Positions 2-43,650 of a stretch of 50,987 nt of DNA are shown piece after piece; positions within the stretch are counted from its first letter, which is position 1, and the number at the start of each line of letters is the position of its first letter. Origin of the DNA: Escherichia phage JLBYU10. The stretch lies in sequence record OK272486.1; one strand, given 5' to 3'. Made by a program: the position numbers and the translations under genes. A model generated the notes under the pieces. The model did no database searches and was not told the DNA's origin. It worked only from the letters and a program-made list of their open reading frames with translations.

Positions 2-931
2 TTATAGCAGTGATTCGGGCTTGTAGAGTTTTCTTTCTACGCCCTGTTTAAAATTATCGTTAACAGGCATCATTATGTCAAGCCCTCTTTCCTCTGCCGC
101 GATTATCACATCACGATCATCTTTCCGGCAGACTACGCGCATTCTTCTTTCTCCTTTATATCTATGCGCAACCATTTCAAGATTTGAAGGAGTAAAACAG
201 GCCCACACCTCTTGACCAGTTGATAAATGAACATGCTGAGAATCAACCCAATCAAGGCACAAATAGATCGTCTTATCTGTGCTACCTGTTTTAACAACAG
301 ATCCGCGCGTGTAGTCGCGAGCTAAAAACCAATCCTTTCCATCCTCATCAATGAAAAGCACGTTACACATTTCATCATCCAGCCCGTCATCATGCACCAG
401 GTGACAAGGTAGCGCGTGAATGTATCGACCATCCTTGACGCCGCAATCATAATGACAATCTTCCGGCGGATATATCCCTTCATAAACACTTAAAGGTGTG
501 CGATCGAATTTTAATGTTTTTGCCATCACTTTTTCGCAGCATTCATGACTTGCCTGTTTCCCGAACGAGTAACCAGAAGAACGCGAAGCGCGTTTGTTTG
601 CTCTGATCCTGTAATCCTGCGGCACTTTTCCGAGGAAGCGGCCCAAAATGTTGATGGCCTCGCTGTAAGGTTCGCCAGTTAATTTCATTAACCAACCGAT
701 CCCCGTGTCGTTGCCGCATACGTTGCAGATCGCGCCGCCGTCGCCCTCTTCATTTAGCTTATCAGTCCATCTAAAACGATCCTTACCGCCGCAGTGTGGG
801 CAAGGTTGATGCTTTTTGTTGAAAACATCGCTATGCAGTCCGCAAATGCTTTGTAGTGCTTCACGCCATAACCCCTTCATATATGGCAAAACATCTTCTT
901 TCTGATAGGTCATAAAGTTTTCAGTATTCAT
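2..931 (-). CDS. DNA primase (zinc-ribbon plus TOPRIM-like domain)
   Basis: ORF 2..1009 trimmed to internal Met with GAGG RBS; CPHCGG...CNVCG zinc ribbon; YEG and FIDEDGKD acidic motifs resembling TOPRIM. Confidence 0.55.
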   Translation of the reverse strand: MNTENFMTYQKEDVLPYMKGLWREALQSICGLHSDVFNKKHQPCPHCGGKDRFRWTDKLNEEGDGGAICNVCGNDTGIGWLMKLTGEPYSEAINILGRFLGKVPQDYRIRANKRASRSSGYSFGKQASHECCEKVMAKTLKFDRTPLSVYEGIYPPEDCHYDCGVKDGRYIHALPCHLVHDDGLDDEMCNVLFIDEDGKDWFLARDYTRGSVVKTGSTDKTIYLCLDWVDSQHVHLSTGQEVWACFTPSNLEMVAHRYKGERRMRVVCRKDDRDVIIAAEERGLDIMMPVNDNFKQGVERKLYKPESLL

Positions 932-986
932 GGCAAACCTCAATAAAAAAGCCCAGCAAATATTATCATTTCGCTGAGCCTTATCA

Positions 987-1463
987 TTAGCTATTTGTGC
1001 TGTTATCACCTTTGTAGAATCGTCCGCCTGGTTCGTAGTCTGAATTTTTGACTACGCGCAACATCTCGTATTTGTCGCAACGGGTAGTAAGAGGCTTACC
1101 GTTAGAATCAAACCGCAGATCTGGACGACAAAATGATGCGCGGTATCCTTTGCATCCATTATATTTGTAGTCGTTATGCACCTTTTGTGCTCCAGCGGCT
1201 GAAATCATACCACGCTTTCGCCATTGGTTAACGACTTGCTGAGATACGCGTAGACGTCGAGCCATAGCAGGAACACCGCCATAATACTCGATCAGAATAT
1301 CCAAGCGAGATTTCAGGCTTGCTTTTACCTCATCTCGCAGGATAAGAAATCCGGTTCGGTGTTTTCGTGGCTTTTTGTCTTTACCTCGTCGCGTTCCGTT
1401 GTTACCGTTAATAGTGCGCTTGTCGATCTCACCCGTAGAAACCGCAATTCGTGCATCTTTCAT
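987..1463 (-). CDS. HTH DNA-binding protein (Cro/YdaS-like helix-turn-helix)
   Basis: ORF track; segment GGVPAMARRLRVSQQVVNQWRKRG looks like an HTH; basic N-terminus. Confidence 0.45.
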   Translation of the reverse strand: MKDARIAVSTGEIDKRTINGNNGTRRGKDKKPRKHRTGFLILRDEVKASLKSRLDILIEYYGGVPAMARRLRVSQQVVNQWRKRGMISAAGAQKVHNDYKYNGCKGYRASFCRPDLRFDSNGKPLTTRCDKYEMLRVVKNSDYEPGGRFYKGDNSTNS

Positions 1464-1474
1464 CTAGTCACCTC

Positions 1475-1518
1475 ATAGCATTTTTTGTTAAAACAGTTTA
1501 TTGTAATGAGTCTATTAT
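1475..1518 (+). promoter_or_regulatory. Motif-type promoter-like unit: ATAGCATTTTTTGTTAAAAC, 22-bp spacer, TATTAT
   Basis: Conserved motif copy in divergent intergenic region upstream of helicase gene; -10-like hexamer 22 bp after TTGTTA. Confidence 0.45.
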
Positions 1519-1550
1519 ATACTCCAAATGGCATTTTTTAAAGGTTTAAG

Positions 1551-3548
1551 ATGATTCCAAATATCGAAAAACAAATATCAGCGTTAGGCGAGGCAGTAAT
1601 AAAAAGCATCCAAGAGCGATTCACGGTTGGCAATATAGTGCCTTATCCTTATCAGTGCGTTGCGTATGCCGAGATCGCAAAGCGCATGAAAAACTATGAG
1701 CATCCTTTCTTTGTTAAGGCTTCTGTGTCGGCTGGCAAAACATTGATGTTTGCGATGGTTGCGGCGCAATGCCGAAAAATGGGATTGAAAATGATGGTCC
1801 TTGCTCGCCAGGCTGAAATTGTTGATCAGGATTCGGAAGAGATCAGCAATCTTGGAGTGCCAAACTCAATCTATTGCGCCGGACTGAAAACAAAAAGCGC
1901 ATACTTTCCGATCGTGGTCGGTTCTGAGGGCACTGTAGTAAACGGATTGTTTAAGTCGTTAGGTGATTATGTTCCGCACGTTATCGGTATTGATGAATGT
2001 CACCAGGTGGATTGGGAGGATCTCGCGGACGCGATAGAAAATAATGAATCTTACCAGCAGATGACCACTAAGAAGGATTTGCCTGTACTGATTGGAGAAG
2101 AACAGCAATTTGATTCCAATGGCGATCCAATGTTCGGAACAGGGCGCACACAGTACACCGTAATAATCATGGAAATGATGCGCAGGTGTCGCGAGGCATA
2201 CGGGCACGAATTGCGAATATTCGGTATGACTGGATCTGAGTTTCGCGGCGTGGTTCCAATACTGGTTGAAGATAAGAACAAAAAGGGATTCTGGCGTGAG
2301 CAGGTGACTAACATAGACACAAACTACTTAATCAAATTTGGTTCGGTAGTGCCAACAAATTTCGGCGACGTAGGCGACCTGGGGTATGACCTTTCAGAGT
2401 TCGAAGCCAGTAGCGAGGATGGCGTTTCAGACTTTGACGCTAAAACATTGCGCAAGATGGAAGAAAAGATCCATCAAGACGCAACAATGACACAGAAAAT
2501 CATGGCTAAAGTCCATGAGATATGCAAAGACAGGAACGGAGTTTTAGTTACATGCGCAGGGGAAAGGCACTGCAATGAGGCCGCCGCCGCACTGCCGCCA
2601 GGCGTTGAATACAGGATCATAACTGGCAAGACTGGAGATAATCAGCGTAAAGAGTGGCTGAGGGAGGCATACGAGGGAAAAGTAAAATACATCTTCCAGG
2701 TACAGGCGCTTACCACTGGCGTTAACGTTCCGTTTTGGGATACTTCGGTAATACTGAGAAAGATAGGATCTCTAACATTGCTTATCCAGCTTTTGGGGCG
2801 CGGCATGCGACTGCTTAAGCAATGGCACATTGAGCAGGGATTCAAGAAAAAAGATCATCTTGTATTGGATTTTGCAGGTACTATGGATGAGTTAGGTGAT
2901 TTGTATTTCGATCCAATCCTTGAGCAAGCGCAATTTCAAAAGAGATTTACAAACGGGAAAGAGCCTAAGACTTGCCCGATATGTGGAACGCTAAACAGCT
3001 TTTACGCTCGCCGATGTATGCAAGTAGACGATAACGGGAAGCGATGTGAGCATTTTTGGACTTACAGAATTTGCGAGGACCAGGTAGATCCGAGAACGAA
3101 AAAGATAATCAAGCGCGGCTGCGGAACAAAAAACGACGTAGTGGCGAGAGTATGCCGTTGTTGCGATATTTCTCTTATCGATCCTAACGAGAAGTTAAGC
3201 GGTAAGCACTACACCAAAAACGATTGGTGCAACGTTAAATCTTTCCGCGTTGATATGACGAAAAACCAGAAAGGAATTATTTTTTGCTATGAGCTTGAGG
3301 CCAACGGCGACACGTTCAAGGCATACGAAAGATTTTTCCCTGAGTCAGAAAGCAACATTTGCCGGACGATATGGAGAAAAATAGCATTGCAGCACATACC
3401 GGATCGCAAGATTGCTGGTATGGTGGCGAGCTATAGAAATGCTCGTAAAATAATGTCATACGCTCATCACATCATGCCGCCTGTACGCGTAACGCATCGC
3501 AAAAACGGCAAAGGTGAGGATAACATTGCAAAACGGGAGTTTGTTTAA
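1551..3548 (+). CDS. SF2 DNA helicase with C-terminal Cys-rich zinc-binding region
   Basis: Walker A-like SAGKT, motif II IDECH, helicase C-terminal-like region, multiple CxxC near C-terminus. Confidence 0.65.
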   Translation: MIPNIEKQISALGEAVIKSIQERFTVGNIVPYPYQCVAYAEIAKRMKNYEHPFFVKASVSAGKTLMFAMVAAQCRKMGLKMMVLARQAEIVDQDSEEISNLGVPNSIYCAGLKTKSAYFPIVVGSEGTVVNGLFKSLGDYVPHVIGIDECHQVDWEDLADAIENNESYQQMTTKKDLPVLIGEEQQFDSNGDPMFGTGRTQYTVIIMEMMRRCREAYGHELRIFGMTGSEFRGVVPILVEDKNKKGFWREQVTNIDTNYLIKFGSVVPTNFGDVGDLGYDLSEFEASSEDGVSDFDAKTLRKMEEKIHQDATMTQKIMAKVHEICKDRNGVLVTCAGERHCNEAAAALPPGVEYRIITGKTGDNQRKEWLREAYEGKVKYIFQVQALTTGVNVPFWDTSVILRKIGSLTLLIQLLGRGMRLLKQWHIEQGFKKKDHLVLDFAGTMDELGDLYFDPILEQAQFQKRFTNGKEPKTCPICGTLNSFYARRCMQVDDNGKRCEHFWTYRICEDQVDPRTKKIIKRGCGTKNDVVARVCRCCDISLIDPNEKLSGKHYTKNDWCNVKSFRVDMTKNQKGIIFCYELEANGDTFKAYERFFPESESNICRTIWRKIALQHIPDRKIAGMVASYRNARKIMSYAHHIMPPVRVTHRKNGKGEDNIAKREFV

Positions 3549-10459: not shown

Positions 10460-10677
10460 TTGATCCGCTCTATTGCAACCAGAAGTCGATCAGGCTGGCG
10501 GTCGCTGTAGCATTCTCCTGTAATCCCATCCTTAAACGTAAAGTAAAGCGCCTTATGATATGAAAAACCAATCAGCCAACCTACCGCCGTTTTTTTGATG
10601 GGCCTAACTATATCGCCAGGCTTGAAAGTCTTTGTGGTAGAATGCGTTACTTTATAACGGTTTTCACTGTTTATCAC
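10456..10677 (-). CDS. hypothetical protein
   Basis: ORF track. Confidence 0.45.
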   Translation of the reverse strand: MINSENRYKVTHSTTKTFKPGDIVRPIKKTAVGWLIGFSYHKALYFTFKDGITGECYSDRQPDRLLVAIERIK

Positions 10678-11060
10678 AGATATTTGCCCTCAAACAGATA
10701 ACAGCCGCCAGCAGAGAATCCGACCTCTTCACGGTACAGGTTCCAGCGGTCGCCGCACTCATCAAAAACATAACCCGCAACGCTTCCAAGCGGTCGCCCT
10801 TTCTCGATCTGGTATCGCTTGCCCTGCTTAAAGTGCTTTTTGCACGGCATGTTATGATCTACAAACGTGCAAAGAACGGTTTTTGTGTTAATGGCGCGGT
10901 AATCATCTCGGTTTGCTGGAAGCCAGCGGCTACCCTTAACAAGCGTCTTAACCTGGAATTCTTCCACCTCGATCACATCATCACTTCCTGCAATCTTCTG
11001 ATAAACCGTTTTAAAACGGCCTTTCATCAATACGTTGGTTTCATTACAGATAACATTCAT
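10674..11060 (-). CDS. hypothetical protein
   Basis: ORF track; AAGGAGATC RBS. Confidence 0.5.
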   Translation of the reverse strand: MNVICNETNVLMKGRFKTVYQKIAGSDDVIEVEEFQVKTLVKGSRWLPANRDDYRAINTKTVLCTFVDHNMPCKKHFKQGKRYQIEKGRPLGSVAGYVFDECGDRWNLYREEVGFSAGGCYLFEGKYL

Positions 11061-11089: not shown

Positions 11090-11133
11090 ATTATGCCAGG
11101 TTTTTACACCTGGCTTTTAACAAAAAGTGCTAT
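11090..11133 (-). promoter_or_regulatory. Motif-type promoter-like unit (minus): ATAGCACTTTTTGTTAAAAG, hairpin CCAGG..CCTGG, CATAAT
   Basis: Motif overlaps TAG stop of methyltransferase-like gene; fixed 22-bp spacer. Confidence 0.5.
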
Positions 11134-11870
11134 TTTGAATTTGACTCAAAGACGGCGCGAGCAAATCCGCGCGGAGTGAGGGAGCGTAGTTGCTTTGTTC
11201 TGGCAGACTTACCGCCTAAAAACTTCCAACCCCAAAAGAACATTACGCCATCATCATTGGATAACGGCTTGCGTTCCGGTTCGGTAAATCCGTTGCCGCA
11301 CCAGATAGCCGTCCTTTTAGTGTAGCCATCCTTTAGCGGCATTTTGGGGTGAAATGACCCATCGGATTCGTCCAAGTAGTTACCAAAATCGCGCGGATTG
11401 AAATAAAAATCCGGCTTGCGCCATAGCGTTGATAGTCGGCCTACCGGATTCTCAGCCATCCAGGGAACACCGAAATGATTTCCGACTTTTTCAACCATGA
11501 TTGCATTTTGGAGCGCGATATGAATATCGTCTTCGCTGCGCACATGCTTACTTCCTGATTGGGCGAACATGGTGCAGTCTGGAAAGCCAAATACAATATC
11601 AGGTTTTGGAATATCCATCTTAATGATGTTTTCAATGAAATTTTCATCAATCCACATATTCACATAATGCAGATTTTCATGCTTCATTTTGATGAAATAT
11701 TCTCCGTGATTGCCTTCGTCAGCGTTAAAGCAATAGCATTGATAACCAGCCTTCGCATATTCAAGCAACATGATTCCAGATCCATCAAACATTGAGTAAG
11801 CAACTTTATTTCCCATGATTTTTATGATACCCCAATTCATTCTCGGCTTTACGTTTTGCGGCAACAGCAT
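11130..11870 (-). CDS. DNA cytosine methyltransferase-like protein
   Basis: FDGSG (motif I-like), GFPDC (Pro-Cys-like), ENP motifs; start uncertain (overlaps HNH gene end). Confidence 0.5.
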   Translation of the reverse strand: MLLPQNVKPRMNWGIIKIMGNKVAYSMFDGSGIMLLEYAKAGYQCYCFNADEGNHGEYFIKMKHENLHYVNMWIDENFIENIIKMDIPKPDIVFGFPDCTMFAQSGSKHVRSEDDIHIALQNAIMVEKVGNHFGVPWMAENPVGRLSTLWRKPDFYFNPRDFGNYLDESDGSFHPKMPLKDGYTKRTAIWCGNGFTEPERKPLSNDDGVMFFWGWKFLGGKSARTKQLRSLTPRGFARAVFESNSK

Positions 11871-12333
11871 CTCCAAAACTGGAGAAACAACCTATATAAA
11901 TCCTACTTCCTCGCTTTCCGCTTCCAACCCTTACAATCCACTTGCCATGTTTATTTTTATGCACGCCTGGTATGCCACTTGTATTGTTTTTCTGCTTTGA
12001 TGTGTTTCGCATATTTCCTTTGTGATCTTTTAACTCAAAGTTTATTGCTCTGTTATCAGTCGTAATGTGATTTACGTGATCAACCTCCATTCCTTCCGGT
12101 ATAGGCCCATAGTGCATTTCATAGCATATTCTATGAACTTTCAGGTTATAACGTTTTCCGTTTACAGTAAGTGCGGTTTCTAAATATCTGCCACCACTAC
12201 CCAAAGAGCCAACCTCATTACCAGCATTACAAGCATTCCATTGTTTAACTCTTGATTGGTGAATATCTTTTCTTTCTTTCCAGAACAGCTTTCCGGTTTC
12301 TGGATTGTATGTAAAGTAATCGTGCCAATTCAT
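11806..12333 (-). CDS. HNH homing endonuclease (HNH plus AP2-like DNA-binding region)
   Basis: VDHVNHITTDNR HNH signature; GIPGV...KW...VG; paralogous to ORF at 39518..39994. Confidence 0.65.
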   Translation of the reverse strand: MNWHDYFTYNPETGKLFWKERKDIHQSRVKQWNACNAGNEVGSLGSGGRYLETALTVNGKRYNLKVHRICYEMHYGPIPEGMEVDHVNHITTDNRAINFELKDHKGNMRNTSKQKNNTSGIPGVHKNKHGKWIVRVGSGKRGSRIYIGCFSSFGDAVAAKRKAENELGYHKNHGK

Positions 12334-12341
12334 TCATTACC

Positions 12342-12566
12342 TCAAAACGGAAAACAGCGCGCACAACCAGGATCGAAATCGCATCCACAATCATTAACAA
12401 TCATAGTGGGATCTGCAAATATTGCGCTTGATTCAAGATCCATATCCATATCACCTAAAGCCTCATCAAGAGTCTTAATTTTATATGCCACTTCAAGCGC
12501 CGCCTCTTTATTTAGTCCGGCATCTTCTGCCATTTGAAGGCGCTCAAAAAATCCGTCTTGACTCAT
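12342..12566 (-). CDS. hypothetical protein
   Basis: ORF track. Confidence 0.4.
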   Translation of the reverse strand: MSQDGFFERLQMAEDAGLNKEAALEVAYKIKTLDEALGDMDMDLESSAIFADPTMIVNDCGCDFDPGCARCFPF

Positions 12567-37386: not shown

Positions 37387-38148
37387 ATGGCTAATAAAGA
37401 ATCAGGTAGAGTTGAATTTGAGAACTGCCTACAAAGTTTGTACCCAGGTGAAATTATAACGCTTGTAGAGATTGACGGGACGAAGTTCGGGGCAAATATT
37501 TACCGATTTCACAATGAGAACATCTCTTATACTGCCGAAGAATTAATGCAAGCGCAGCAAACCGGAATCTTGCCGCCGAAAGATATTATTTTTCAGGGTG
37601 AGGTTTACGGAGCGCGGCCTTTCGGTGTGAGCGGGATTAACTTCACAAGTAACGGCAGGGCAGATAAGCCTCAGCTTATAGTGTCAAACCTTGACAGCAG
37701 GGTTAGCGCCATGATCAGAAACTACAATGGCATGATGCAAGCAAAGGTGACTTTCTGGATTACGGCAAAGGAATTTATAGGAGAAGGCGGAGCAATCAAA
37801 GATGGCGCTTACAGAAAATTGGTTTATTACATTGAGCGCCCAAGCCAGTATAATAGAGAGGTGGCGAAATTTGATCTGACATCGCCTTACGATATGGATG
37901 GATTAATGATCCCGCCGCGCATCACTCAAAGCGTTTGCTATTGGGCGCAAAGGGGGTGGTACAGGAGCGGAAAGGGTTGCTCTTATAACGGATCGGCAAT
38001 GTTCGATAAAGACAATAAGCCAGTAACAGATCCATCACAAGACTATTGCGCAGGAACTGTAACGGCTTGCAAATTGAGATTCGGTCAGCAAAACGAGTTG
38101 GATTTCGGCGGCTGTGCGGTGGCATCACTGCTACGGAGGAATCAATAA
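37387..38148 (+). CDS. minor tail protein (lambda L-like, C-terminal Cys cluster)
   Basis: 253 aa with C-terminal cysteines CYWAQ...GCSYNG...YCAGTVTAC. Confidence 0.55.
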   Translation: MANKESGRVEFENCLQSLYPGEIITLVEIDGTKFGANIYRFHNENISYTAEELMQAQQTGILPPKDIIFQGEVYGARPFGVSGINFTSNGRADKPQLIVSNLDSRVSAMIRNYNGMMQAKVTFWITAKEFIGEGGAIKDGAYRKLVYYIERPSQYNREVAKFDLTSPYDMDGLMIPPRITQSVCYWAQRGWYRSGKGCSYNGSAMFDKDNKPVTDPSQDYCAGTVTACKLRFGQQNELDFGGCAVASLLRRNQ

Positions 38149-38879
38149 TGATTAGTGCAAAAATTAAACTTGAAATAATGCAGCACGTTAAAGAGGAATA
38201 CCCTAAAGAGGCTTGCGGCGTCATAACTCAAAAGTCACGGGTACAGAAATATCACCGCATAACCAACGTTCATGACGATCCAGAAAATCATTTTGAAATG
38301 GACGCCGTAGAATACGCTGAATCGCTCGACAAAGGCGAATTAATCGCGGTGGTGCATTCCCATTGCGGGGATGGTGCTAGCACGATACCGAGCGCGCACG
38401 ACTCATGTATGTGCGATGAAATGGGTGTGTCGTGGATTATAGTGTCATGGCCCGAAGGTGATATGAGAATTGTCGAGCCGCAGGAGAGGCCGCTTATCGG
38501 TCGCCCGTGGTCGCTGGGGTCGTTCGATTGCTGGGGTCTTATCATGGCATGGCATAAACAGCACGGAGTAGTATTGAATGACTTCCGAAAGCCTTACGAG
38601 TGGTGGAGGTCAGAATATGGTGAAAATCTTTACCAGGATAATTATTTGAAAGAGGGATTTGTTGAAACTAACGAGCCTCCAAAACCTGGTGATATGGTGA
38701 TTATGCAGCTATCATCGCCAGTCTGGAATCATGCGGGGATTTATTTGGGTAACAATCAGCTATTACATCATGCGTTTGGAAAGCTATCTCGCATTGACTT
38801 GTATTCTGGATGGTATCAGGAGCACACTGTAAAAATTTGCCGACATAAGGATCTGAAATATGACATTGAAAGTAATTAA
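38148..38879 (+). CDS. tail assembly protein (lambda K-like, MPN/JAMM plus NlpC/P60-like)
   Basis: ORF 38046..38879 trimmed to Met with GGAGG RBS; EACGV and HSHCGDGASTIPSAHD JAMM-like motif. Confidence 0.55.
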   Translation: MISAKIKLEIMQHVKEEYPKEACGVITQKSRVQKYHRITNVHDDPENHFEMDAVEYAESLDKGELIAVVHSHCGDGASTIPSAHDSCMCDEMGVSWIIVSWPEGDMRIVEPQERPLIGRPWSLGSFDCWGLIMAWHKQHGVVLNDFRKPYEWWRSEYGENLYQDNYLKEGFVETNEPPKPGDMVIMQLSSPVWNHAGIYLGNNQLLHHAFGKLSRIDLYSGWYQEHTVKICRHKDLKYDIESN

Positions 38880-39456
38880 GCTATCTGGTTCCCTGGGGCG
38901 TAGATTTGGCGTCTTTCACAAAATGGCGGTTGACTCATACCCCGAAGCAATACGCGCGTTATCTTCCCAGGTTGAAGGGTTCAAAGACTACATGCAAAGC
39001 GAAGTAGGATCGCGCATGAAATACGCTGTATTCGTTGATGGAAAAAACATTGGTCAGCATGATGAAAAATCATGGAAGTGCGCGCGAGAGGTTCGAATAG
39101 TTCCTGTTCCAACTGGTTCTAAGTCCGGCGGCCTGTTCAATGTTGTTTTTGGTGCTGTAATTATGGCTACTGCGTTCATTACTGGCGGTGGAAGCCTGGC
39201 GCTTATGGGCGCTTTTGCATCTTCCGCATTTATGATGGGTGGTGCTATAGCGCTTGGCGGTGTCATGCAAATGATCTCACCGCAGCAGGGCGGAATGAAA
39301 CTGCAAAGCCAATCAGCGGAAAACAAGCCTTCTTACGCTTTCGGCGGTGCAGTAAATACCACGGCGGCAGGTTATCCGGTTCCGTTGCCATATGGATATA
39401 GGACAGTCGGCGGCGCGATCTGGTCGGCTGGCAGCTACGCAGAGGACAAAGCATAA
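38860..39456 (+). CDS. tail assembly protein (lambda I-like)
   Basis: ORF between K-like and J-like genes; Gly/Ala-rich hydrophobic C-terminal half. Confidence 0.5.
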   Translation: MTLKVIKLSGSLGRRFGVFHKMAVDSYPEAIRALSSQVEGFKDYMQSEVGSRMKYAVFVDGKNIGQHDEKSWKCAREVRIVPVPTGSKSGGLFNVVFGAVIMATAFITGGGSLALMGAFASSAFMMGGAIALGGVMQMISPQQGGMKLQSQSAENKPSYAFGGAVNTTAAGYPVPLPYGYRTVGGAIWSAGSYAEDKA

Positions 39457-39500
39457 ATAGCACAATATGTTAAAGCGAAAACGGATTTTCGCTTTACAAT
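39457..39500 (+). promoter_or_regulatory. Motif-type promoter-like unit (ATAGCACAATATGTTAAAG), hairpin GCGAAAA..TTTTCGC, TACAAT
   Basis: Motif adjacent to TAA stop of I-like gene; precedes HNH gene inserted in tail module. Confidence 0.45.
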
Positions 39501-39517
39501 TAATTAAGGAGGTGATC

Positions 39518-39994
39518 ATGTGGCGTGATATTTTTTATTATAATGACGGTAAGTTATTTTGGGCTGTAGACGTAGGAAGAAGGATAAAGAAAGGAAGTGA
39601 GGCAGGAAGCGTAAGCAAAAGCAAGAAGAGTGGAGAAAGGGTTAGAATATCAATTGATGGAGAAAGATACTACAGGAGCAGGATAGTTTGGGAAATTCAT
39701 AATGGAGAAATACCGCATGGAATGCAAGTTGATCACATAGATCACAACACAATGAACGACAATATTTCAAACTTAAGACTTGTTAGAATGAGTGTTAACA
39801 ACAAGAATAAGTCGCTTTACAGGAACAGCAAGACGGGAATTACTGGGGTAAACTTTAGTCGCGGAAAATGGATTGCAAGAGCAAAGATTGATGGTGTTAG
39901 GCATGAATTTTACTTTGATTCATTTCAGGATGCGGCAGAAAAGAGGATAGAGATTGAAGTTTTAAACAAATTCCACATAAACCACGGAAAGTAG
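39518..39994 (+). CDS. HNH homing endonuclease (paralog of 11806..12333)
   Basis: ORF 39467..39994 trimmed to Met with AAGGAGG RBS; VDHIDHNTMNDN HNH signature; shared C-terminal ...HGK. Confidence 0.65.
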   Translation: MWRDIFYYNDGKLFWAVDVGRRIKKGSEAGSVSKSKKSGERVRISIDGERYYRSRIVWEIHNGEIPHGMQVDHIDHNTMNDNISNLRLVRMSVNNKNKSLYRNSKTGITGVNFSRGKWIARAKIDGVRHEFYFDSFQDAAEKRIEIEVLNKFHINHGK

Positions 39995-39997
39995 ATT

Positions 39998-40023
39998 TAA
40001 CCAGCATTGCGCTGGTTTTTTTG
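39998..40023 (+). terminator. rho-independent terminator after HNH gene
   Basis: CCAGC..GCTGG stem followed by T7. Confidence 0.55.
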
Positions 40024-40071
40024 TGCATTTATAATGTGCAAACCAAGAAACAGCACAAAAGGTTAAAAGTC

Positions 40072-43000
40072 ATGGCTAAATATATGATAAGCGGCAGTAA
40101 GGGCGGAAGCAAAAAGCCATACGTGCCAAAAGAGATGGAAGATAACCTGATCTCGATAAACAAGATTAAAGTTTTGCTGGCTGTATCTGATGGCGAGTGC
40201 GATCCAGATTTCACGTTGCGTGATCTTTATCTTGATGATGTTCCGGTTATTGCCAGCGATGGCACTGTTAACTATGAGGGGGTAACGGCTGAATATAGAC
40301 CAGGCACACAGACGCAAGATTACATCCAGGGGTTTACTGACACATCAAGCGAGGTGACAGTTTCGCGAGACATTACAACAGACAATCCCTATATTATCTC
40401 TGTGACAAACAAAAATCTTTCTGCAATAAGAATCAAGATTCTGATGCCAGTTGGCATAAAACAGGAGGATAACGGCGATCTTGTTGGCGTAAGGGTTGAG
40501 TATGCCGTAGATATGGCTATTGATGGCGGTTCTTATAGCGAGGTTATGAGAGATGTAATTGACGGCAAGACAAGATCAGGATACGACCGCAGCAGAAGGA
40601 TTGATCTTCCTAAGTTTGATGAGCGCGTTTTAATCCGAGTAAAGCGACTGACTCCAGACAGCACATCTTCAAAGGTGACTGATAAAATCAAGCTGCAAAG
40701 TTACGCTGAGGTTGTTGATGCAAAATTCCGTTATCCTCTGACTGGCCTTGTATTCGTAGAATTTGACAGCGAATTGTTTCCTACGCAAATCCCTAACATT
40801 TCTATAAAAAAGAAATGGAAGATTATTAATGTGCCAAGCAACTATGATCCAATATCAAGAGAATATCACGGGTCATGGGATGGGACTTTTAAAAAAGCGT
40901 GGTCAAATAATCCCGCTTGGGTTCTTTATGATCTGGTGACAAATCAGCGTTATGGACTTGATCAGCGAGAGTTAGGAATACAGATCGACAAGTGGAGCTT
41001 ATACGAGGCGGGCGTTTACTGTGATCAGAAAGTTCCAGACGGTAAGGGCGGTACAGAGCCTCGCTACCTATGCGATGTAGTTATCCAGAATCAGGTTGAG
41101 GCTTATCAGCTAATCCGTGACATTTGCTCAATCTTTCGCGGAATGAGCTTTTGGAATGGTGAGAGCTTATCAATCGTGATTGATAAGCCGCGCGATCCAT
41201 CATACGTGTTTACTAATGAAAACGTCATCAACGGTGATTTTCAGTACACAACCGCAAGCGAAAAAAGCATGTACACGCAATGTAATGTGACGTTTGACGA
41301 CGAACAAAACATGTATCAACAGGACGTCGAGGGGGTTTTTGATACTGAGGCGGCATTACGATTTGGATACAATCCAACAAGCATTACAGCGATCGGATGT
41401 ACACGCAGGAGTGAAGCGAATCGTCGCGGTCGGTGGGTTTTGAAAACAAACCTTAGAAGCACTACTGTAAACTTTGCTACCGGACTAGAGGGGATGATTC
41501 CATCCATAGGTGATGTGATTGCTATCGCTGATAATTTTCAGAGCAGCAATCTAACGTTAAATCTTTCGGGCCGAGTAATGGAAGTTTCAGGCTTGCAAGT
41601 TTTCGTTCCGTTTAAAGTTGATGCGCGTCCTGGTGATTTTATTATCATCAATAAGCCGGACGGCAAGCCAGTTAAGCGAACGATCTCAAAGGTGAGCGCA
41701 GACGGAAAAACCATTGAGTTAAATATTGGCTTTGGTTTTGATGTTAAGCCTGATACTGTTTTTGCGATTGACCGTACTGACCTTGCGTTGCAGCAATACG
41801 TTGTGACAACTATCAGCAAGGGTGATGACGAAAACGAGTTTACCTATTCAATCACGGCTGTAGAGTACGATCCGAACAAATACGACGAGATTGATTATGG
41901 AGTAAACATTGATGACAGGCCAACTTCAATTGTTCAGCCTGACGTGATGGCAGCGCCTGAGAACGTGCAGATCTCATCTTATTCTCGCGTCGTGCAGGGC
42001 GTCAGCGTTGAAACTATGGTTGTGTCGTGGGAAAAAGTGCCTTATGCGTCACTGTATGAAATGCAATGGCGAAAAGGTGATGGCAACTGGCTGAATACGC
42101 CGCAGACAGCTAACAAAGAGATAGAGGTAGAAGGAATTTATTCTGGTAACTACCAAGTAAGGGTTAGATCTGTTTCTGCAAGCGGTAACACTTCCCCGTG
42201 GTCAAAGATTGCAACCGCAACCCTGACAGGTAAAGTTGGCGAGCCAGGAGCGCCGATTAATCTTACAGCTTCTGATAATGAAGTTTTTGGCATTCGTGTC
42301 AAATGGGGTATGCCGGAAGGATCAGGCGATACGGCTTACATTGAGCTTCACCAATCGCCAGACGGAACGGTTGAAAACTCAAGCCTGCTTACGCTGATTC
42401 CATATCCTCAATATGAGTATTGGCATAGCACGTTACCAGCGGGTCAAGTTGTATGGTATAGAATCCGTAGCGTTGACAGGATCGGCAACGTTTCCGGCTG
42501 GACTGACTTTGTTCGCGGCATGGCGTCAGATGATGTTGAATCTGTTTTAGGCGACATTCTGGACAAGATTTTTGATACCGAAGCGGGTCAAGAAATCAAA
42601 GAGAACGCCATAGACAGTGCAAACAAAATCAAAGACCAGGCGCAATCAATCATCCAGAACGCATTGGCAAACGATGCTGATGTGAAGTGGACGCGAGTAC
42701 AAAACGGAAAGCGTAAGGCTGAATATGGTCATGCACTGGAGCTTATTGCTACCGAAACGGAGGCGCGAGTAACTCAAATCGAAGAGTTAAAGGCGTCAAT
42801 TGATGAAGATATAGTTTCAAGTATCAAAACCGTTCAGGAAGCGATTGCCAACGAATCAGAGACGCGAGCTACTCAAGTGCAGCAACTTGATTCTAAATTT
42901 ACGAAGGAAATAGACGGCGTAAAACAAGATACGGCTGCAAGCATTGGCGAGGTAAGGCAAACCATTACCAATGAATCAGAAGCGCGTGCGCAAGCCGTTC

Positions 43001-43650
43001 AGCAGCTTGACGCTAAGTTTTCGAAAGAGATTAATGACCTTAACGATGCAATCAAGGTTGATGTTGAGGCGAACATATCAGAAGTAAGACAGGCTATCGC
43101 TAATGAGACAGAGGCAAGGGTTCAGGCTGACCAGGCTTTAACAGCCAAATTCGGAGACGTTGAATCAGCACTAGCCGAAAAACTTGATTCGTGGGCTAAC
43201 GTTGATTCGGTTGGCGCTAAGTACGCTATGAAATTGGGCCTTACTTACAAGGGGCAGAAGTACAGCGCAGGCATGATCATGCAGTTGTCGCAATCTTCTC
43301 AAGGCCTGATCTCGCAAATCTTGTTCGATGCTAACAGGTTCGCGATCATGACTAGCTCTACTGGCGGTACGTTTACATTGCCGTTTGTAGTAGAAAATAA
43401 CCAGGTGTTTATCAACAGTTTGTTGGTGAAAAACGGGTCCATTACTAACGCAATGATTGGTAACGTGATTCAGTCAAATAACTTTGTTCAGAATCAGCAA
43501 GGATGGAGGCTTGATAAAAATGGTAACTTTGAGAACTACGGAACTAGAGCGGGAGAAGGAGCTACAAAATTCACTAACGAAGGCTTAAAGGTGAAAGATG
43601 CAAATGGACGATTGAGAGTTGAGATAGGGAGAATAACCGGAAGTTGGTAA
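40072..43650 (+). CDS. tail tip / host specificity protein (lambda J-like)
   Basis: ORF 40021..43650 trimmed to Met; ~1190 aa; last large gene of tail module. Confidence 0.7.
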   Translation: MAKYMISGSKGGSKKPYVPKEMEDNLISINKIKVLLAVSDGECDPDFTLRDLYLDDVPVIASDGTVNYEGVTAEYRPGTQTQDYIQGFTDTSSEVTVSRDITTDNPYIISVTNKNLSAIRIKILMPVGIKQEDNGDLVGVRVEYAVDMAIDGGSYSEVMRDVIDGKTRSGYDRSRRIDLPKFDERVLIRVKRLTPDSTSSKVTDKIKLQSYAEVVDAKFRYPLTGLVFVEFDSELFPTQIPNISIKKKWKIINVPSNYDPISREYHGSWDGTFKKAWSNNPAWVLYDLVTNQRYGLDQRELGIQIDKWSLYEAGVYCDQKVPDGKGGTEPRYLCDVVIQNQVEAYQLIRDICSIFRGMSFWNGESLSIVIDKPRDPSYVFTNENVINGDFQYTTASEKSMYTQCNVTFDDEQNMYQQDVEGVFDTEAALRFGYNPTSITAIGCTRRSEANRRGRWVLKTNLRSTTVNFATGLEGMIPSIGDVIAIADNFQSSNLTLNLSGRVMEVSGLQVFVPFKVDARPGDFIIINKPDGKPVKRTISKVSADGKTIELNIGFGFDVKPDTVFAIDRTDLALQQYVVTTISKGDDENEFTYSITAVEYDPNKYDEIDYGVNIDDRPTSIVQPDVMAAPENVQISSYSRVVQGVSVETMVVSWEKVPYASLYEMQWRKGDGNWLNTPQTANKEIEVEGIYSGNYQVRVRSVSASGNTSPWSKIATATLTGKVGEPGAPINLTASDNEVFGIRVKWGMPEGSGDTAYIELHQSPDGTVENSSLLTLIPYPQYEYWHSTLPAGQVVWYRIRSVDRIGNVSGWTDFVRGMASDDVESVLGDILDKIFDTEAGQEIKENAIDSANKIKDQAQSIIQNALANDADVKWTRVQNGKRKAEYGHALELIATETEARVTQIEELKASIDEDIVSSIKTVQEAIANESETRATQVQQLDSKFTKEIDGVKQDTAASIGEVRQTITNESEARAQAVQQLDAKFSKEINDLNDAIKVDVEANISEVRQAIANETEARVQADQALTAKFGDVESALAEKLDSWANVDSVGAKYAMKLGLTYKGQKYSAGMIMQLSQSSQGLISQILFDANRFAIMTSSTGGTFTLPFVVENNQVFINSLLVKNGSITNAMIGNVIQSNNFVQNQQGWRLDKNGNFENYGTRAGEGATKFTNEGLKVKDANGRLRVEIGRITGSW

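What the first reader, a model, noticed from the sequence alone, without database searches (positions are those of the whole stretch)
11806..12333. Two paralogous HNH homing-endonuclease genes in different modules
ORFs 11806..12333 (minus) and 39518..39994 (plus) share architecture (N-terminal GKLFW region, VDH..H HNH motif, AP2-like segment, C-terminal ...HGK). One overlaps the start region of the cytosine-methyltransferase-like gene; the other is inserted between the lambda I-like and J-like tail genes and has its own motif-type promoter and terminator. Free-standing HNH genes are mobile, and their positions mark likely homing or recombination sites.
Basis: partly seen in the sequence, partly recalled or inferred. 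Interest (0 to 1): 0.45.

Follow-up and report, generated by a model that had tools for sequence, protein, structure and literature searches.

The report
Two mobile HNH homing-endonuclease genes
This T1-like coliphage carries two related selfish nuclease genes that are present in some near-identical phages and cleanly absent from others; this is a common, well-understood kind of phage parasite.

Summary
ORFs 11806..12333(-) (HNH1, 175 aa) and 39518..39994(+) (HNH2, 158 aa) are paralogues: 36% identity, E 4e-25. Both pass Pfam HNH_3 and match phrog_99 over their full length. A family profile and an AlphaFold model show an I-HmuI-like N-terminal/HNH part followed by an AP2-like C-terminal domain.

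The window is a Warwickvirus (Drexlerviridae). Both genes are optional among phages about 97-98% identical to it:
- Precise empty sites exist for both.
- Decayed copies exist for both (tonn/ityhuna for HNH2; a 23-nt scar in 2019SD1 for HNH1).
- All four presence/absence combinations occur.
- HNH2 diversity among carriers is 0.25%, against 3-6% in the adjacent flanks.
- HNH1 is 99.4% identical in a Salmonella Tlsvirus whose flanks are only 50-85% identical.
- HNH1 marks a sharp boundary of a swapped methyltransferase allele, with variable tract ends.
- HNH1 dN/dS is 0.17.

Best reading: free-standing HNH-AP2 homing endonuclease genes that spread by cleavage-stimulated gene conversion.

The terminator after HNH2 is the resident I-J terminator, not an extra one. 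The overlap with the methyltransferase start is 11 nt.

This is a known kind, already annotated as HNH or homing endonuclease in relatives. Interest is low.

The parts
11806..12333 (-). HNH1: free-standing HNH(-AP2) homing-endonuclease gene, 175 aa
   Evidence: Pfam HNH_3 E 9.5e-15. phrog_99 E 1.7e-51. AF2 model pLDDT 91.9, with I-HmuI (1U3E) as best PDB match, then AP2 domains. Present in 12 phage records, absent from most relatives. dN/dS 0.17 against the S2_02 copy.
39518..39994 (+). HNH2: paralogous free-standing HNH(-AP2) homing-endonuclease gene, 158 aa
   Evidence: 36% identical to HNH1, E 4e-25. Pfam HNH_3 E 1e-15. phrog_99 E 4.2e-49. Intact in 7 distinct phages at 99.6% identity or more. 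The ATG at 39518 follows an AAGGAGG Shine-Dalgarno sequence (39506..39512) and matches the homologue N-termini; the alternative ATG at 39467 lies inside the promoter-like motif.
39444..40013 (+). HNH2 mobile cassette as delimited by linked markers: the last codons of gene I, the inserted DNA, and a variant of the I-J terminator
   Evidence: Only 39444 and 39447 (synonymous, end of gene I) and 40003, 40006, 40013 (terminator) are perfectly linked to HNH2 presence. All four combinations of HNH2 state and SNP allele occur at 40027 and 39348. Diversity among carriers is 0.25% here, against 3.3% and 6.0% in the adjacent flanks.
39457..39500 (+). Promoter-like motif copy heading the HNH2 cassette: box ATAGCACAATATGTTAAA (39457..39474), 20-nt spacer forming a hairpin (arms 39472..39481 and 39486..39495), hexamer TACAAT (39495..39500)
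   Evidence: Same architecture as 14 canonical copies in the window, against 0 expected by chance. Absent from the empty-site allele. The fold is not significantly more stable than shuffled sequence (z -1.46). Promoter function is not tested.
39999..40017 (+). Intrinsic-terminator-like hairpin followed by a T-run, downstream of HNH2 and upstream of J
   Evidence: Found by the terminator scan. Homologous hairpin in empty-site alleles, with a compensatory CCCGC/GCGGG to CCAGC/GCTGG change. It is therefore the resident I-J terminator, not an added one.
38860..39456 (+). Lambda-I-like tail assembly gene, left flank of the HNH2 site
   Evidence: Pfam Lambda_tail_I E 1.1e-20.
40072..43650 (+). J-like tail tip / host-specificity gene, right flank of the HNH2 site
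   Evidence: ORF. Annotated as tail fiber / host specificity protein J in relatives. The ATG at 40072 corresponds to the annotated start in relatives.
11130..11816 (-). DNA methyltransferase gene immediately downstream of HNH1. Its ATG (11816..11814) lies 8 nt before the HNH1 stop codon, giving an 11-nt overlap. Its first five codons are supplied by the inserted DNA.
   Evidence: phrog_757 DNA methyltransferase E 6.6e-78. N-terminus is MGNKV here, against MKQKI in the HNH-less allele of the same type.
11217..11805 (-). Hanrivervirus-type methyltransferase allele tract that accompanies HNH1 in this Warwickvirus background (putative co-conversion tract)
   Evidence: About 40-76% identical to HNH-less Warwickviruses tonijn and atuna, while the flanks are 98% identical. 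98% identical to the HNH-less Hanrivervirus A16a. The tract end varies between carriers: about 11400 in Kalemo and about 11100 in GS71.
12334..12566 (-). Upstream 74-aa gene (12342..12566) plus the GAGG ribosome-binding site (12340..12343), which serves HNH1 here and the methyltransferase in empty-site alleles. The left junction of the HNH1 insertion is fixed at 12333/12334.
   Evidence: The junction ...CCGTTTTGAGGT(A/G)ATGA|ATGAATTGG is identical in Warwickvirus, Tlsvirus and Tunavirus carriers. Empty alleles read GAGGTAATGACG|ATG(MTase).

Best explanation
Both ORFs are free-standing (not intron- or intein-borne) homing endonuclease genes of the phage HNH-AP2 type. Each has an I-HmuI-like N-terminal DNA-contact region, an HNH (beta-beta-alpha-metal) nuclease, and a C-terminal AP2-like DNA-binding domain.

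Inferred mechanism. During co-infection with a related phage that lacks the gene, the enzyme nicks or cuts the HNH-less allele at or near the insertion point. For HNH2 that is the I-J spacer; for HNH1 it is the 5' region of the methyltransferase gene. The break is repaired by recombination using the HNH-bearing genome as template, which copies the gene and a variable stretch of flanking DNA into the recipient. Relatives annotate an exonuclease VIII / Erf-like annealing protein / SSB set that could carry out the repair.

The two genes differ in how they are likely expressed:
- HNH2 is a self-contained cassette. It has a promoter-like motif, a Shine-Dalgarno sequence and the ORF, and it sits upstream of the resident terminator.
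- HNH1 is an ORF-only insertion. It took over the methyltransferase's ribosome-binding site and supplies that gene with a new start codon and first five codons.

Shown: family and fold, intact catalytic residues, purifying selection, precise empty sites, decayed copies, independent assortment of the two genes, transfer across genera, and recombination boundaries at both genes.

Inferred: nuclease activity, nick versus double-strand cut, exact target sites, and that cleavage rather than ordinary recombination drives the spread.
For: Family and fold:
- HNH_3 above the gathering score and full-length phrog_99 match.
- Profile hits to I-HmuI 1U3E (E 7e-8) and to AP2 domains (E 1e-7).
- 39 of 68 homologues carry Pfam AP2.
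- AF2 model pLDDT 91.9; top Foldseek match is I-HmuI, followed by AP2 domains.

Optional genes with clean junctions:
- HNH2: empty, full and internally deleted alleles aligned.
- HNH1: empty alleles on two different methyltransferase allele types, plus a 23-nt scar in 2019SD1.
- All four presence/absence combinations occur among relatives.

Recent horizontal spread:
- HNH2 diversity among 7 carriers is 0.25%, against 3.3% and 6.0% in the immediately adjacent DNA of the same genomes. All four combinations of HNH2 state and SNP allele occur within 14 bp downstream and 96 bp upstream.
- HNH1 is 99.4% identical between this phage and Salmonella Tlsvirus GS71, whose flanks are 50-85% identical.
- HNH1 is 99.4% identical between the window and AV105, although the adjoining methyltransferase tracts are only 91.9% identical.

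Flank co-conversion: HNH1 sits at the edge of a swapped methyltransferase allele. The left junction is fixed; the right ends vary at about 11100, 11200 and 11400.

Functional constraint: HNH1 dN/dS is 0.17 at dS 0.33.

Precedent: HNH plus AP2 is a recognised class of phage homing endonuclease genes (PMC2993671 Table 5; PMC10448857). Nuclease genes at boundaries of genetic exchange are described for other phages (PMC10448857).
Against: - No biochemical or genetic test of cleavage or of biased inheritance exists for these proteins or for close relatives. No paper in the library links Warwickvirus and HNH.
- The window proteins individually miss Pfam AP2.
- The HNH2 co-conversion tracts are very short. 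Its distribution could also be produced by ordinary homologous recombination among frequently co-infecting phages.
- HNH-less alleles of the same methyltransferase type persist (A16a, BEK7). Either they are resistant targets or the drive is weak.
- I-HmuI-type enzymes are nickases, so a classical double-strand-break mechanism cannot be assumed.
Confidence: 0.76

Rival explanations
1. The genes are passive accessory cargo, or now-inactive former endonucleases. Their patchy distribution would then come only from ordinary homologous recombination between co-infecting T1-like phages, without any nuclease-driven gene conversion.
For: - Flanks are highly mosaic even among HNH-less genomes.
- The HNH2 linked tract is only about 570 bp.
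- Degenerate copies exist.
- No activity data exist.
Against: - Catalytic residues are intact.
- HNH1 dN/dS is 0.17.
- Cassette diversity is more than tenfold lower than the flanks in the same genomes.
- HNH1 is 99.4% identical across genera with about 70% identical backgrounds. That fits a driven element better than neutral cargo.
Confidence: 0.12
2. The nucleases are domesticated and serve the phage. Possible roles include excluding markers of competing phages, degrading host or rival DNA, or helping DNA packaging in the way terminase-associated HNH proteins do.
For: - Purifying selection.
- HNH proteins of other phages have packaging roles (general knowledge; not tested here).
- Homing endonucleases can give competitive benefits (for example SegB, PMC13096335, listed).
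Against: - Both genes are dispensable in viable, near-identical phages.
- Neither gene is next to the terminase: the neighbours are a methyltransferase and tail genes I and J.
- Decayed copies are tolerated.
Confidence: 0.08
3. HNH1 and the adjacent cytosine methyltransferase form a restriction-modification-like pair, in which the methylase protects the phage genome from its own HNH nuclease.
For: - The two genes are adjacent and translationally overlapping.
- HNH1 always abuts the same methyltransferase allele type in Warwickvirus and Tlsvirus carriers.
Against: - GS71 and GS166 keep an intact HNH1 (99.4%) next to a methyltransferase with a deletion of about 265 bp that removes window 11496..11768, near the 5' end of the gene.
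- Tunavirus S2_02 carries the gene with no adjacent methyltransferase.
- The same methyltransferase is widespread without HNH1 (503 records).
- The paralogue HNH2 has no methylase partner.
Confidence: 0.03
4. The HNH genes are encoded in group I or group II introns, or are intein-borne.
For: Many phage HNH endonucleases, including I-HmuI, are intron-encoded (general knowledge).
Against: - No Rfam intron family is found anywhere in the window.
- HNH2 lies in an intergenic spacer, and HNH1 lies between two complete genes, with its own start codon and a shared ribosome-binding site.
- The empty alleles show that no host gene is interrupted.
Confidence: 0.01

Closest known systems
I-HmuI (Bacillus phage SPO1, PDB 1U3E), an HNH homing endonuclease
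   Same: Best solved-structure match by profile (E 7e-8) and by fold (Foldseek E 2e-4, 107 columns, rmsd 2.9). It shares the N-terminal beta-sheet region and the HNH D-H...N...N motif.
   Different: I-HmuI is intron-encoded, has a helix-turn-helix C-terminal module rather than AP2, and is a strand-specific nickase (general knowledge). Only 22% identical. The genes here are free-standing.
HNH-AP2 homing endonuclease genes of phages, cyanobacteria and ciliates (Magnani et al. 2004; the 'HNH-AP2' class in T4-related phages such as RB49, RB43, RB16 and JSE; 'IPA-HNH' of ICP1)
   Same: Same two-domain logic, an N-terminal HNH nuclease plus a C-terminal AP2 DNA-binding domain. Free-standing genes that are variably present and often sit next to essential or structural genes (PMC2993671; PMC10448857).
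   Different: The host lineage differs (Drexlerviridae). The window proteins match canonical HNH_3, unlike ICP1's divergent IPA-HNH. Their AP2 domains are too diverged for the Pfam threshold on their own.
Free-standing homing endonucleases of T4 (SegF, SegG, MobE) and 'intronless homing' / HEG islands
   Same: They are inserted between genes. They mobilise themselves plus flanking DNA by gene conversion, which creates localised allele replacement with variable tract ends, as seen for HNH1 and the methyltransferase allele (PMC2790892 and PMC2988022 listed; PMC10448857).
   Different: Seg proteins are GIY-YIG enzymes. MobE is an HNH enzyme of a different architecture. Activity has been shown experimentally for those proteins but not for the ones here.
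The identical or near-identical genes already deposited in GenBank (JLBYU19_20, JLBYU01_79, Kalemo CDS0083/CDS0049, BEK12A QGH77060, mar001J1 MAR002J2_00023)
   Same: 97-100% nucleotide identity, same positions, annotated 'HNH endonuclease' or 'homing endonuclease'.
   Different: Those are annotation labels only. Some records call the genes 'hypothetical protein' (atuna, orkinos, AV105, PeterMerian). No record or paper found here analyses empty sites or mobility.

Membership tests
HNH_3 / I-HmuI-like HNH nucleases (Pfam PF13392) | Profile score above Pfam's gathering threshold | tested here: met
   54.4 and 57.5 bits against a cutoff of 24.8.
HNH_3 / I-HmuI-like HNH nucleases (Pfam PF13392) | Beta-beta-alpha-metal catalytic residues (Asp-His general base pair, structural Asn residues, metal-ligand Asn) | tested here: met
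   D85, H86, N94, N98, N107 and N110 of HNH1 are invariant or nearly invariant in 68 homologues and are matched in HNH2. They align with VDH...N..NLR...N of I-HmuI.
HNH_3 / I-HmuI-like HNH nucleases (Pfam PF13392) | Fold similarity to a solved member | tested here: met
   AF2 model of HNH1 with pLDDT 91.9. Foldseek top hit is 1U3E, E 2e-4. HNH2 was not modelled separately.
HNH-AP2 homing endonucleases | C-terminal AP2 DNA-binding domain (three-stranded sheet plus helix) | tested here: inconclusive
   The family profile hits AP2 structures (7WQ5 E 1e-7, 7ET4 E 2e-4). 39 of 68 homologues hit PF00847. The model shows E124-126, E132-136, E145-150 and H153-167, and matches AP2 domains at probability 1.0 but E 0.02-0.05. 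The two window proteins themselves give no Pfam AP2 hit even at E 10.
Homing endonuclease gene (functional definition) | Presence/absence polymorphism with precise empty sites among close relatives | tested here: met
Homing endonuclease gene (functional definition) | Co-conversion of flanking markers, and a recombination boundary at the gene | tested here: met
   HNH1: a swapped methyltransferase allele with a fixed left junction and variable right ends. HNH2: only about 15-30 bp of linked flank on each side.
Homing endonuclease gene (functional definition) | Site-specific cleavage or nicking of the gene-less allele, with resistance of the gene-bearing allele | not testable with these tools
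   Needs purified protein and empty-site substrates.
Homing endonuclease gene (functional definition) | Super-Mendelian inheritance in mixed infection | not testable with these tools
   Needs phage crosses. The indirect signal is that cassette diversity is more than tenfold below the flanks and that HNH1 is 99.4% identical across genera.
Intron-encoded homing endonuclease | The ORF is embedded in a self-splicing intron that interrupts a host gene | tested here: not met
   No Rfam intron hit. Both insertions lie between complete genes.
Type II restriction-modification pair (HNH nuclease plus C5 methyltransferase) | The nuclease is retained only together with a functional cognate methylase | tested here: not met
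   GS71 has an intact HNH1 with a deleted methyltransferase. S2_02 has the HNH gene without an adjacent methylase.
Terminase-associated HNH packaging factor (HK97 gp74 type) | Adjacent to the terminase genes and conserved in all members of the phage group | tested here: not met
   The neighbours are a methyltransferase and tail genes I and J. Both genes are dispensable in relatives.

The most novel reading that the evidence does not exclude
The two nucleases may do more than parasitise the genome; they may drive module exchange. HNH1 would carry a particular anti-restriction methyltransferase allele between Drexlerviridae genera (Hanrivervirus-type allele into Warwickvirus and Tlsvirus), acting as a small 'HEG island'. 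HNH2 sits 77 bp upstream of the host-specificity gene J, whose 5' end is the most diverse segment nearby. It would stimulate recombination that shuffles receptor-binding alleles and so influences restriction evasion and host range.
Probability: 0.2. Interest if true: 0.4.

Novelty: already known. Interest (0 to 1): 0.15.

Why it matters
This matters mainly for annotation and comparative genomics.
- The two genes mark recombination boundaries that distort whole-genome phylogenies and ANI-based taxonomy of T1-like phages. One example is a Hanrivervirus-type methyltransferase allele sitting inside a Warwickvirus.
- They provide natural filled, empty and decayed allele series. Those would make easy substrates for defining the target sites of two uncharacterised HNH-AP2 enzymes.
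- If the enzymes prove site-specific, they would add to the small set of characterised HNH-AP2 nucleases.
- Nothing here challenges current understanding.

Tried and rejected
- Single-sequence searches of the PDB gave nothing meaningful. A family profile was needed.
- Pfam on the isolated N- and C-terminal halves at E up to 10 gave no AP2 or NUMOD hit.
- The sigma-70 consensus scan found no promoter upstream of HNH2 or HNH1. The 'promoter' claim therefore rests only on similarity to the repeated motif.
- The fold of the HNH2 leader is not significantly more stable than shuffled sequence (z -1.46). I make no regulatory claim for the hairpin.
- Rfam found no intron or other RNA family, so the intron-encoded reading was rejected.
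- The restriction-modification-pair reading for HNH1 plus the methylase was rejected because of GS71 and S2_02.
- I first thought HNH1 was strictly linked to the divergent methyltransferase allele as one cassette. That was revised when HNH-less genomes with the same allele were found, and when HNH1 copies 99.4% identical were found beside methyltransferase tracts only 92% identical.
- Literature searches for Warwickvirus plus HNH, and for the motif string, returned nothing.
- One script returned no output because several loci are stored in a single file. It was rerun.
Full report
**What the window is.** Megablast of both regions against the phage collection shows a T1-like siphovirus of the genus Warwickvirus (Drexlerviridae, Tempevirinae). 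It is about 97-99% identical to Escherichia phages JLBYU07, JLBYU19, JLBYU01, atuna and Kalemo.

**Checking the observation.**
- The two ORFs are exactly where stated: 11806..12333 on the minus strand (HNH1, 175 aa) and 39518..39994 on the plus strand (HNH2, 158 aa).
- They align over their whole length at 36% identity, E 4e-25. A tblastn of both proteins against the window finds no third copy.
- Both score well above Pfam's gathering threshold for HNH_3. Both match phrog_99 'HNH endonuclease' end to end.
- The ATG at 39518 is the credible start of HNH2. It follows an AAGGAGG site and matches homologue N-termini. The longer ORF from 39467 starts inside an upstream motif.

**Domain architecture.**
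- Single-sequence searches of solved structures were uninformative. The C-terminal halves give no Pfam AP2 hit on their own.
- A search of the large protein collection returned 89 homologues, many pre-annotated with AP2 plus HNH_3.
- A profile of 68 of them hits the homing endonuclease I-HmuI (1U3E, E 7e-8) with its HNH part. Its C-terminal part hits plant AP2 domains (WRI1 E 1e-7, TEM1 E 2e-4). 39 of the 68 members pass Pfam AP2.
- An AlphaFold model of HNH1 is confident (pLDDT 91.9). Its best PDB matches are I-HmuI and then AP2 domains.
- The D-H...N...N...N positions of the HNH motif are conserved in both proteins.

**Site 2 (HNH2, between tail genes I and J).**
- Among the 40 best-matching relatives, 9 records have the full insertion and 3 have a partial one. 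The other 28 lack about 540 bp.
- The gene is intact, at 99.6-100% identity, in 7 distinct phages.
- Alignment of filled, empty and partial alleles shows that the insertion begins directly after the stop codon of gene I and ends just before a terminator hairpin.
- That hairpin is also present in the empty allele, with a compensatory stem change. The terminator is therefore the resident I-J terminator.
- Phages tonn and ityhuna carry the cassette with a 323-bp internal deletion, which makes it a pseudogene.
- In a 13-genome alignment, only two synonymous sites in the last codons of gene I (39444, 39447) and three terminator sites (40003, 40006, 40013) are perfectly linked to the cassette. All four combinations of HNH2 state and SNP allele already occur at 40027 and 39348.
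- Nucleotide diversity among the seven carriers is 0.25% in the cassette. It is 3.3% in the adjacent end of gene I and 6.0% in the adjacent start of J.
- The same nearly invariant cassette therefore sits on several different flanking haplotypes. That is the signature of recent lateral spread.

**The 'own promoter' claim.**
- The first 44 bases of the inserted DNA have three parts: a box ATAGCACAATATGTTAAA, a 20-nt spacer that forms a hairpin, and TACAAT.
- The canonical box ATAGCACTTTTTGTTAAAA occurs 14 times elsewhere in the window, against none expected by chance. It has the same 20-nt spacer and a -10-like hexamer, and it is co-oriented with the downstream genes.
- The empty allele has no such box. 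The cassette therefore brings its own copy of the phage's repeated promoter-like motif.
- No standard sigma-70 promoter is found, the hairpin is not statistically unusual, and promoter function is untested.

**Site 1 (HNH1, upstream of the methyltransferase).**
- HNH1 is full length in only 12 phage records. Most Warwickviruses lack it.
- It lies between a 74-aa gene and a DNA methyltransferase gene (phrog_757, E 6.6e-78).
- In HNH-less genomes the methyltransferase starts 10-12 nt after the upstream gene's stop and uses a GAGG ribosome-binding site. Here that site serves HNH1. The methyltransferase start codon and first five codons (MGNKV instead of MKQKI) are provided by the 3' end of the inserted DNA, and the two ORFs overlap by 11 nt.
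- Relative to HNH-less Warwickviruses (tonijn, atuna), identity is 98% up to 11216 and from 12334 onward. It is only about 40-76% across 11217..11805, which is most of the methyltransferase gene.
- That divergent allele is 98% identical to the allele of HNH-less Hanriverviruses, whose other flanks are only about 50-85% identical.
- The left junction of the insertion is at the same nucleotide in Warwickvirus, Tlsvirus and Tunavirus carriers. The right end of the imported methyltransferase tract varies: about 11200 here, about 11400 in Kalemo, about 11100 in Salmonella phage GS71.
- GS71, a Tlsvirus, has HNH1 at 99.4% identity in a genome otherwise 50-88% identical.
- HNH1 copies that are 99.4% identical (window and AV105) sit beside methyltransferase tracts only 91.9% identical. 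Each methyltransferase sub-allele also exists without HNH1.
- Shigella phage 2019SD1 retains only the first 23 nt of HNH1 and the 3' junction, a deletion scar.
- HNH1 is under purifying selection: dN/dS 0.17 at dS 0.33 against the 90.5% identical Tunavirus copy.

**Distribution of the two genes.** The window and Kalemo have both. JLBYU07, JLBYU19, Poky, PeterMerian, AV105, BEK12A and EC167 have only HNH1. atuna, orkinos, JLBYU01, brachmannus, Phunderstruck and mar001J1 have only HNH2. tonijn, tunus and SECphi27 have neither. The two elements therefore assort independently.

**Interpretation.**
- Everything measurable fits free-standing homing endonuclease genes at different stages of the invasion, spread, decay and loss cycle.
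- The likely mechanism is nuclease-induced damage of the gene-less allele near the insertion point during co-infection, repaired from the gene-bearing genome. Relatives annotate an exonuclease VIII / Erf-like annealing protein / SSB recombination set.
- For HNH1, the one-sided and variable methyltransferase tract suggests that the target lies in the 5' part of the methyltransferase gene.
- For HNH2, the very short linked tract suggests a target at the I-J junction itself.
- The closest solved relative, I-HmuI, is a nickase. A nick-initiated process is as likely as a double-strand break.
- These mechanistic steps are inference. No tool here can test cleavage.

**Rivals.**
- *Passive spread by ordinary recombination.* This cannot be excluded, but it fits poorly with intact catalytic residues, purifying selection and the tenfold deficit of diversity.
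- *Domesticated function.* This is unlikely because both genes are dispensable and decay.
- *Restriction-modification pair (HNH1 plus methylase).* This is contradicted by GS71, which has an intact HNH1 next to a methylase with a roughly 265-bp deletion, and by S2_02, which has no adjacent methylase.
- *Intron-borne.* This is excluded by the anatomy of the sites and by the absence of any Rfam hit.

**Comparison with what is known.**
- HNH plus AP2 is a recognised class of phage homing endonuclease genes (Table 5 of PMC2993671; PMC10448857 citing Magnani et al. 2004).
- Nuclease genes at boundaries of genetic exchange, and 'HEG islands', are described for ICP1 and other phages (PMC10448857).
- Homologues are very common: 2654 phage records match HNH2 at the protein level.
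- The same genes are already labelled 'HNH endonuclease' or 'homing endonuclease' in GenBank records of near-identical phages.
- No paper in the searchable library discusses them in Warwickvirus, and no member of either lineage has been characterised biochemically.

**Verdict.** The feature is an ordinary, already annotated kind of selfish element, and interest is low. Its practical value is as a marker of recombination boundaries in T1-like phage genomics and as a ready-made allele series for defining two new HNH-AP2 target sites.

Noticed in passing
window 1475(+), 3964(+), 5035(+), 8297(-), 10459(-), 11133(-), 13823(-), 14329(-), 15633(-), 16961(+), 18372(+), 20987(+), 29849(-), 33601(-), plus the diverged copy at 39457(+): A repeated intergenic motif: ATAGCACTTTTTGTTAAAA(C), then a 20-nt variable spacer (in several copies a stable hairpin, dG -11 to -14), then a -10-like hexamer (CATAAT, TATATT, TACATT or TATAGT). 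It is co-oriented with the downstream genes and often starts right at the preceding stop codon. None are expected by chance. The 22 nt between TTGTTA and the hexamer is not standard sigma-70 -35/-10 spacing. A literature search for the string found nothing.
   Followed up: partly
L002 (phage tonn) 2718..2834; also phage ityhuna: The HNH2 cassette has a 323-bp internal deletion (not a multiple of 3) and a G-to-T change in its Shine-Dalgarno sequence. It is a decaying pseudogene, annotated as a 117-nt hypothetical protein.
   Followed up: yes
L013 (Shigella phage 2019SD1) about 1440..1800: Only the first 23 nt of HNH1 and its 3' junction remain, a deletion scar. Further downstream the methyltransferase gene is interrupted by a segment that carries a copy of the repeated promoter-like motif and a short ORF.
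   Followed up: partly
L006 (BEK12A) 665..1186; L010 (EC167) 665..1186; L012 (BEK7) 2591..3109; corresponds to window about 10674..11060: Related phages carry a third paralogue of the same HNH family (P0019, 42% identical to HNH1, annotated 'homing endonuclease') at another site near the helicase-proximal small genes. There it displaces or truncates the homologue of the window's 128-aa gene. The window lacks it.
   Followed up: partly
L023 (Salmonella phage GS71) 8899..9336, corresponding to window 11496..11768: The methyltransferase next to an intact HNH1 has a deletion of about 265 bp near the 5' end of the gene. GS71 also carries two further HNH genes at other sites (GS71_059, GS71_068).
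   Followed up: partly
window 40014..40500 (5' end of the J-like gene): This segment has the highest local diversity among Warwickviruses: 5-6%, against about 2% further upstream. Several discrete haplotypes are shared between HNH2-bearing and HNH2-less phages.
   Followed up: partly
L011 and hits H126-H142 (MG0656xx 'Campylobacter phage' records): About 19-20 GenBank records labelled UNVERIFIED Campylobacter phages are T1-like Hanrivervirus genomes. Their methyltransferase is 98% identical to this coliphage's. The host label looks wrong.
   Followed up: no
window 38046..38879 (+): The tail gene upstream of I combines a JAB/MPN domain with an NlpC/P60 domain, which is the usual lambda-K-type architecture. 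The ORF listing starts at a TTG at 38046, but relatives annotate a shorter 732-nt gene.
   Followed up: no
window 39467..39517: Some records (for example Kalemo) annotate HNH2 from the upstream ATG at 39467, giving 175 aa. That start lies inside the promoter-like box and has no Shine-Dalgarno sequence. 39518 is the better start.
   Followed up: yes
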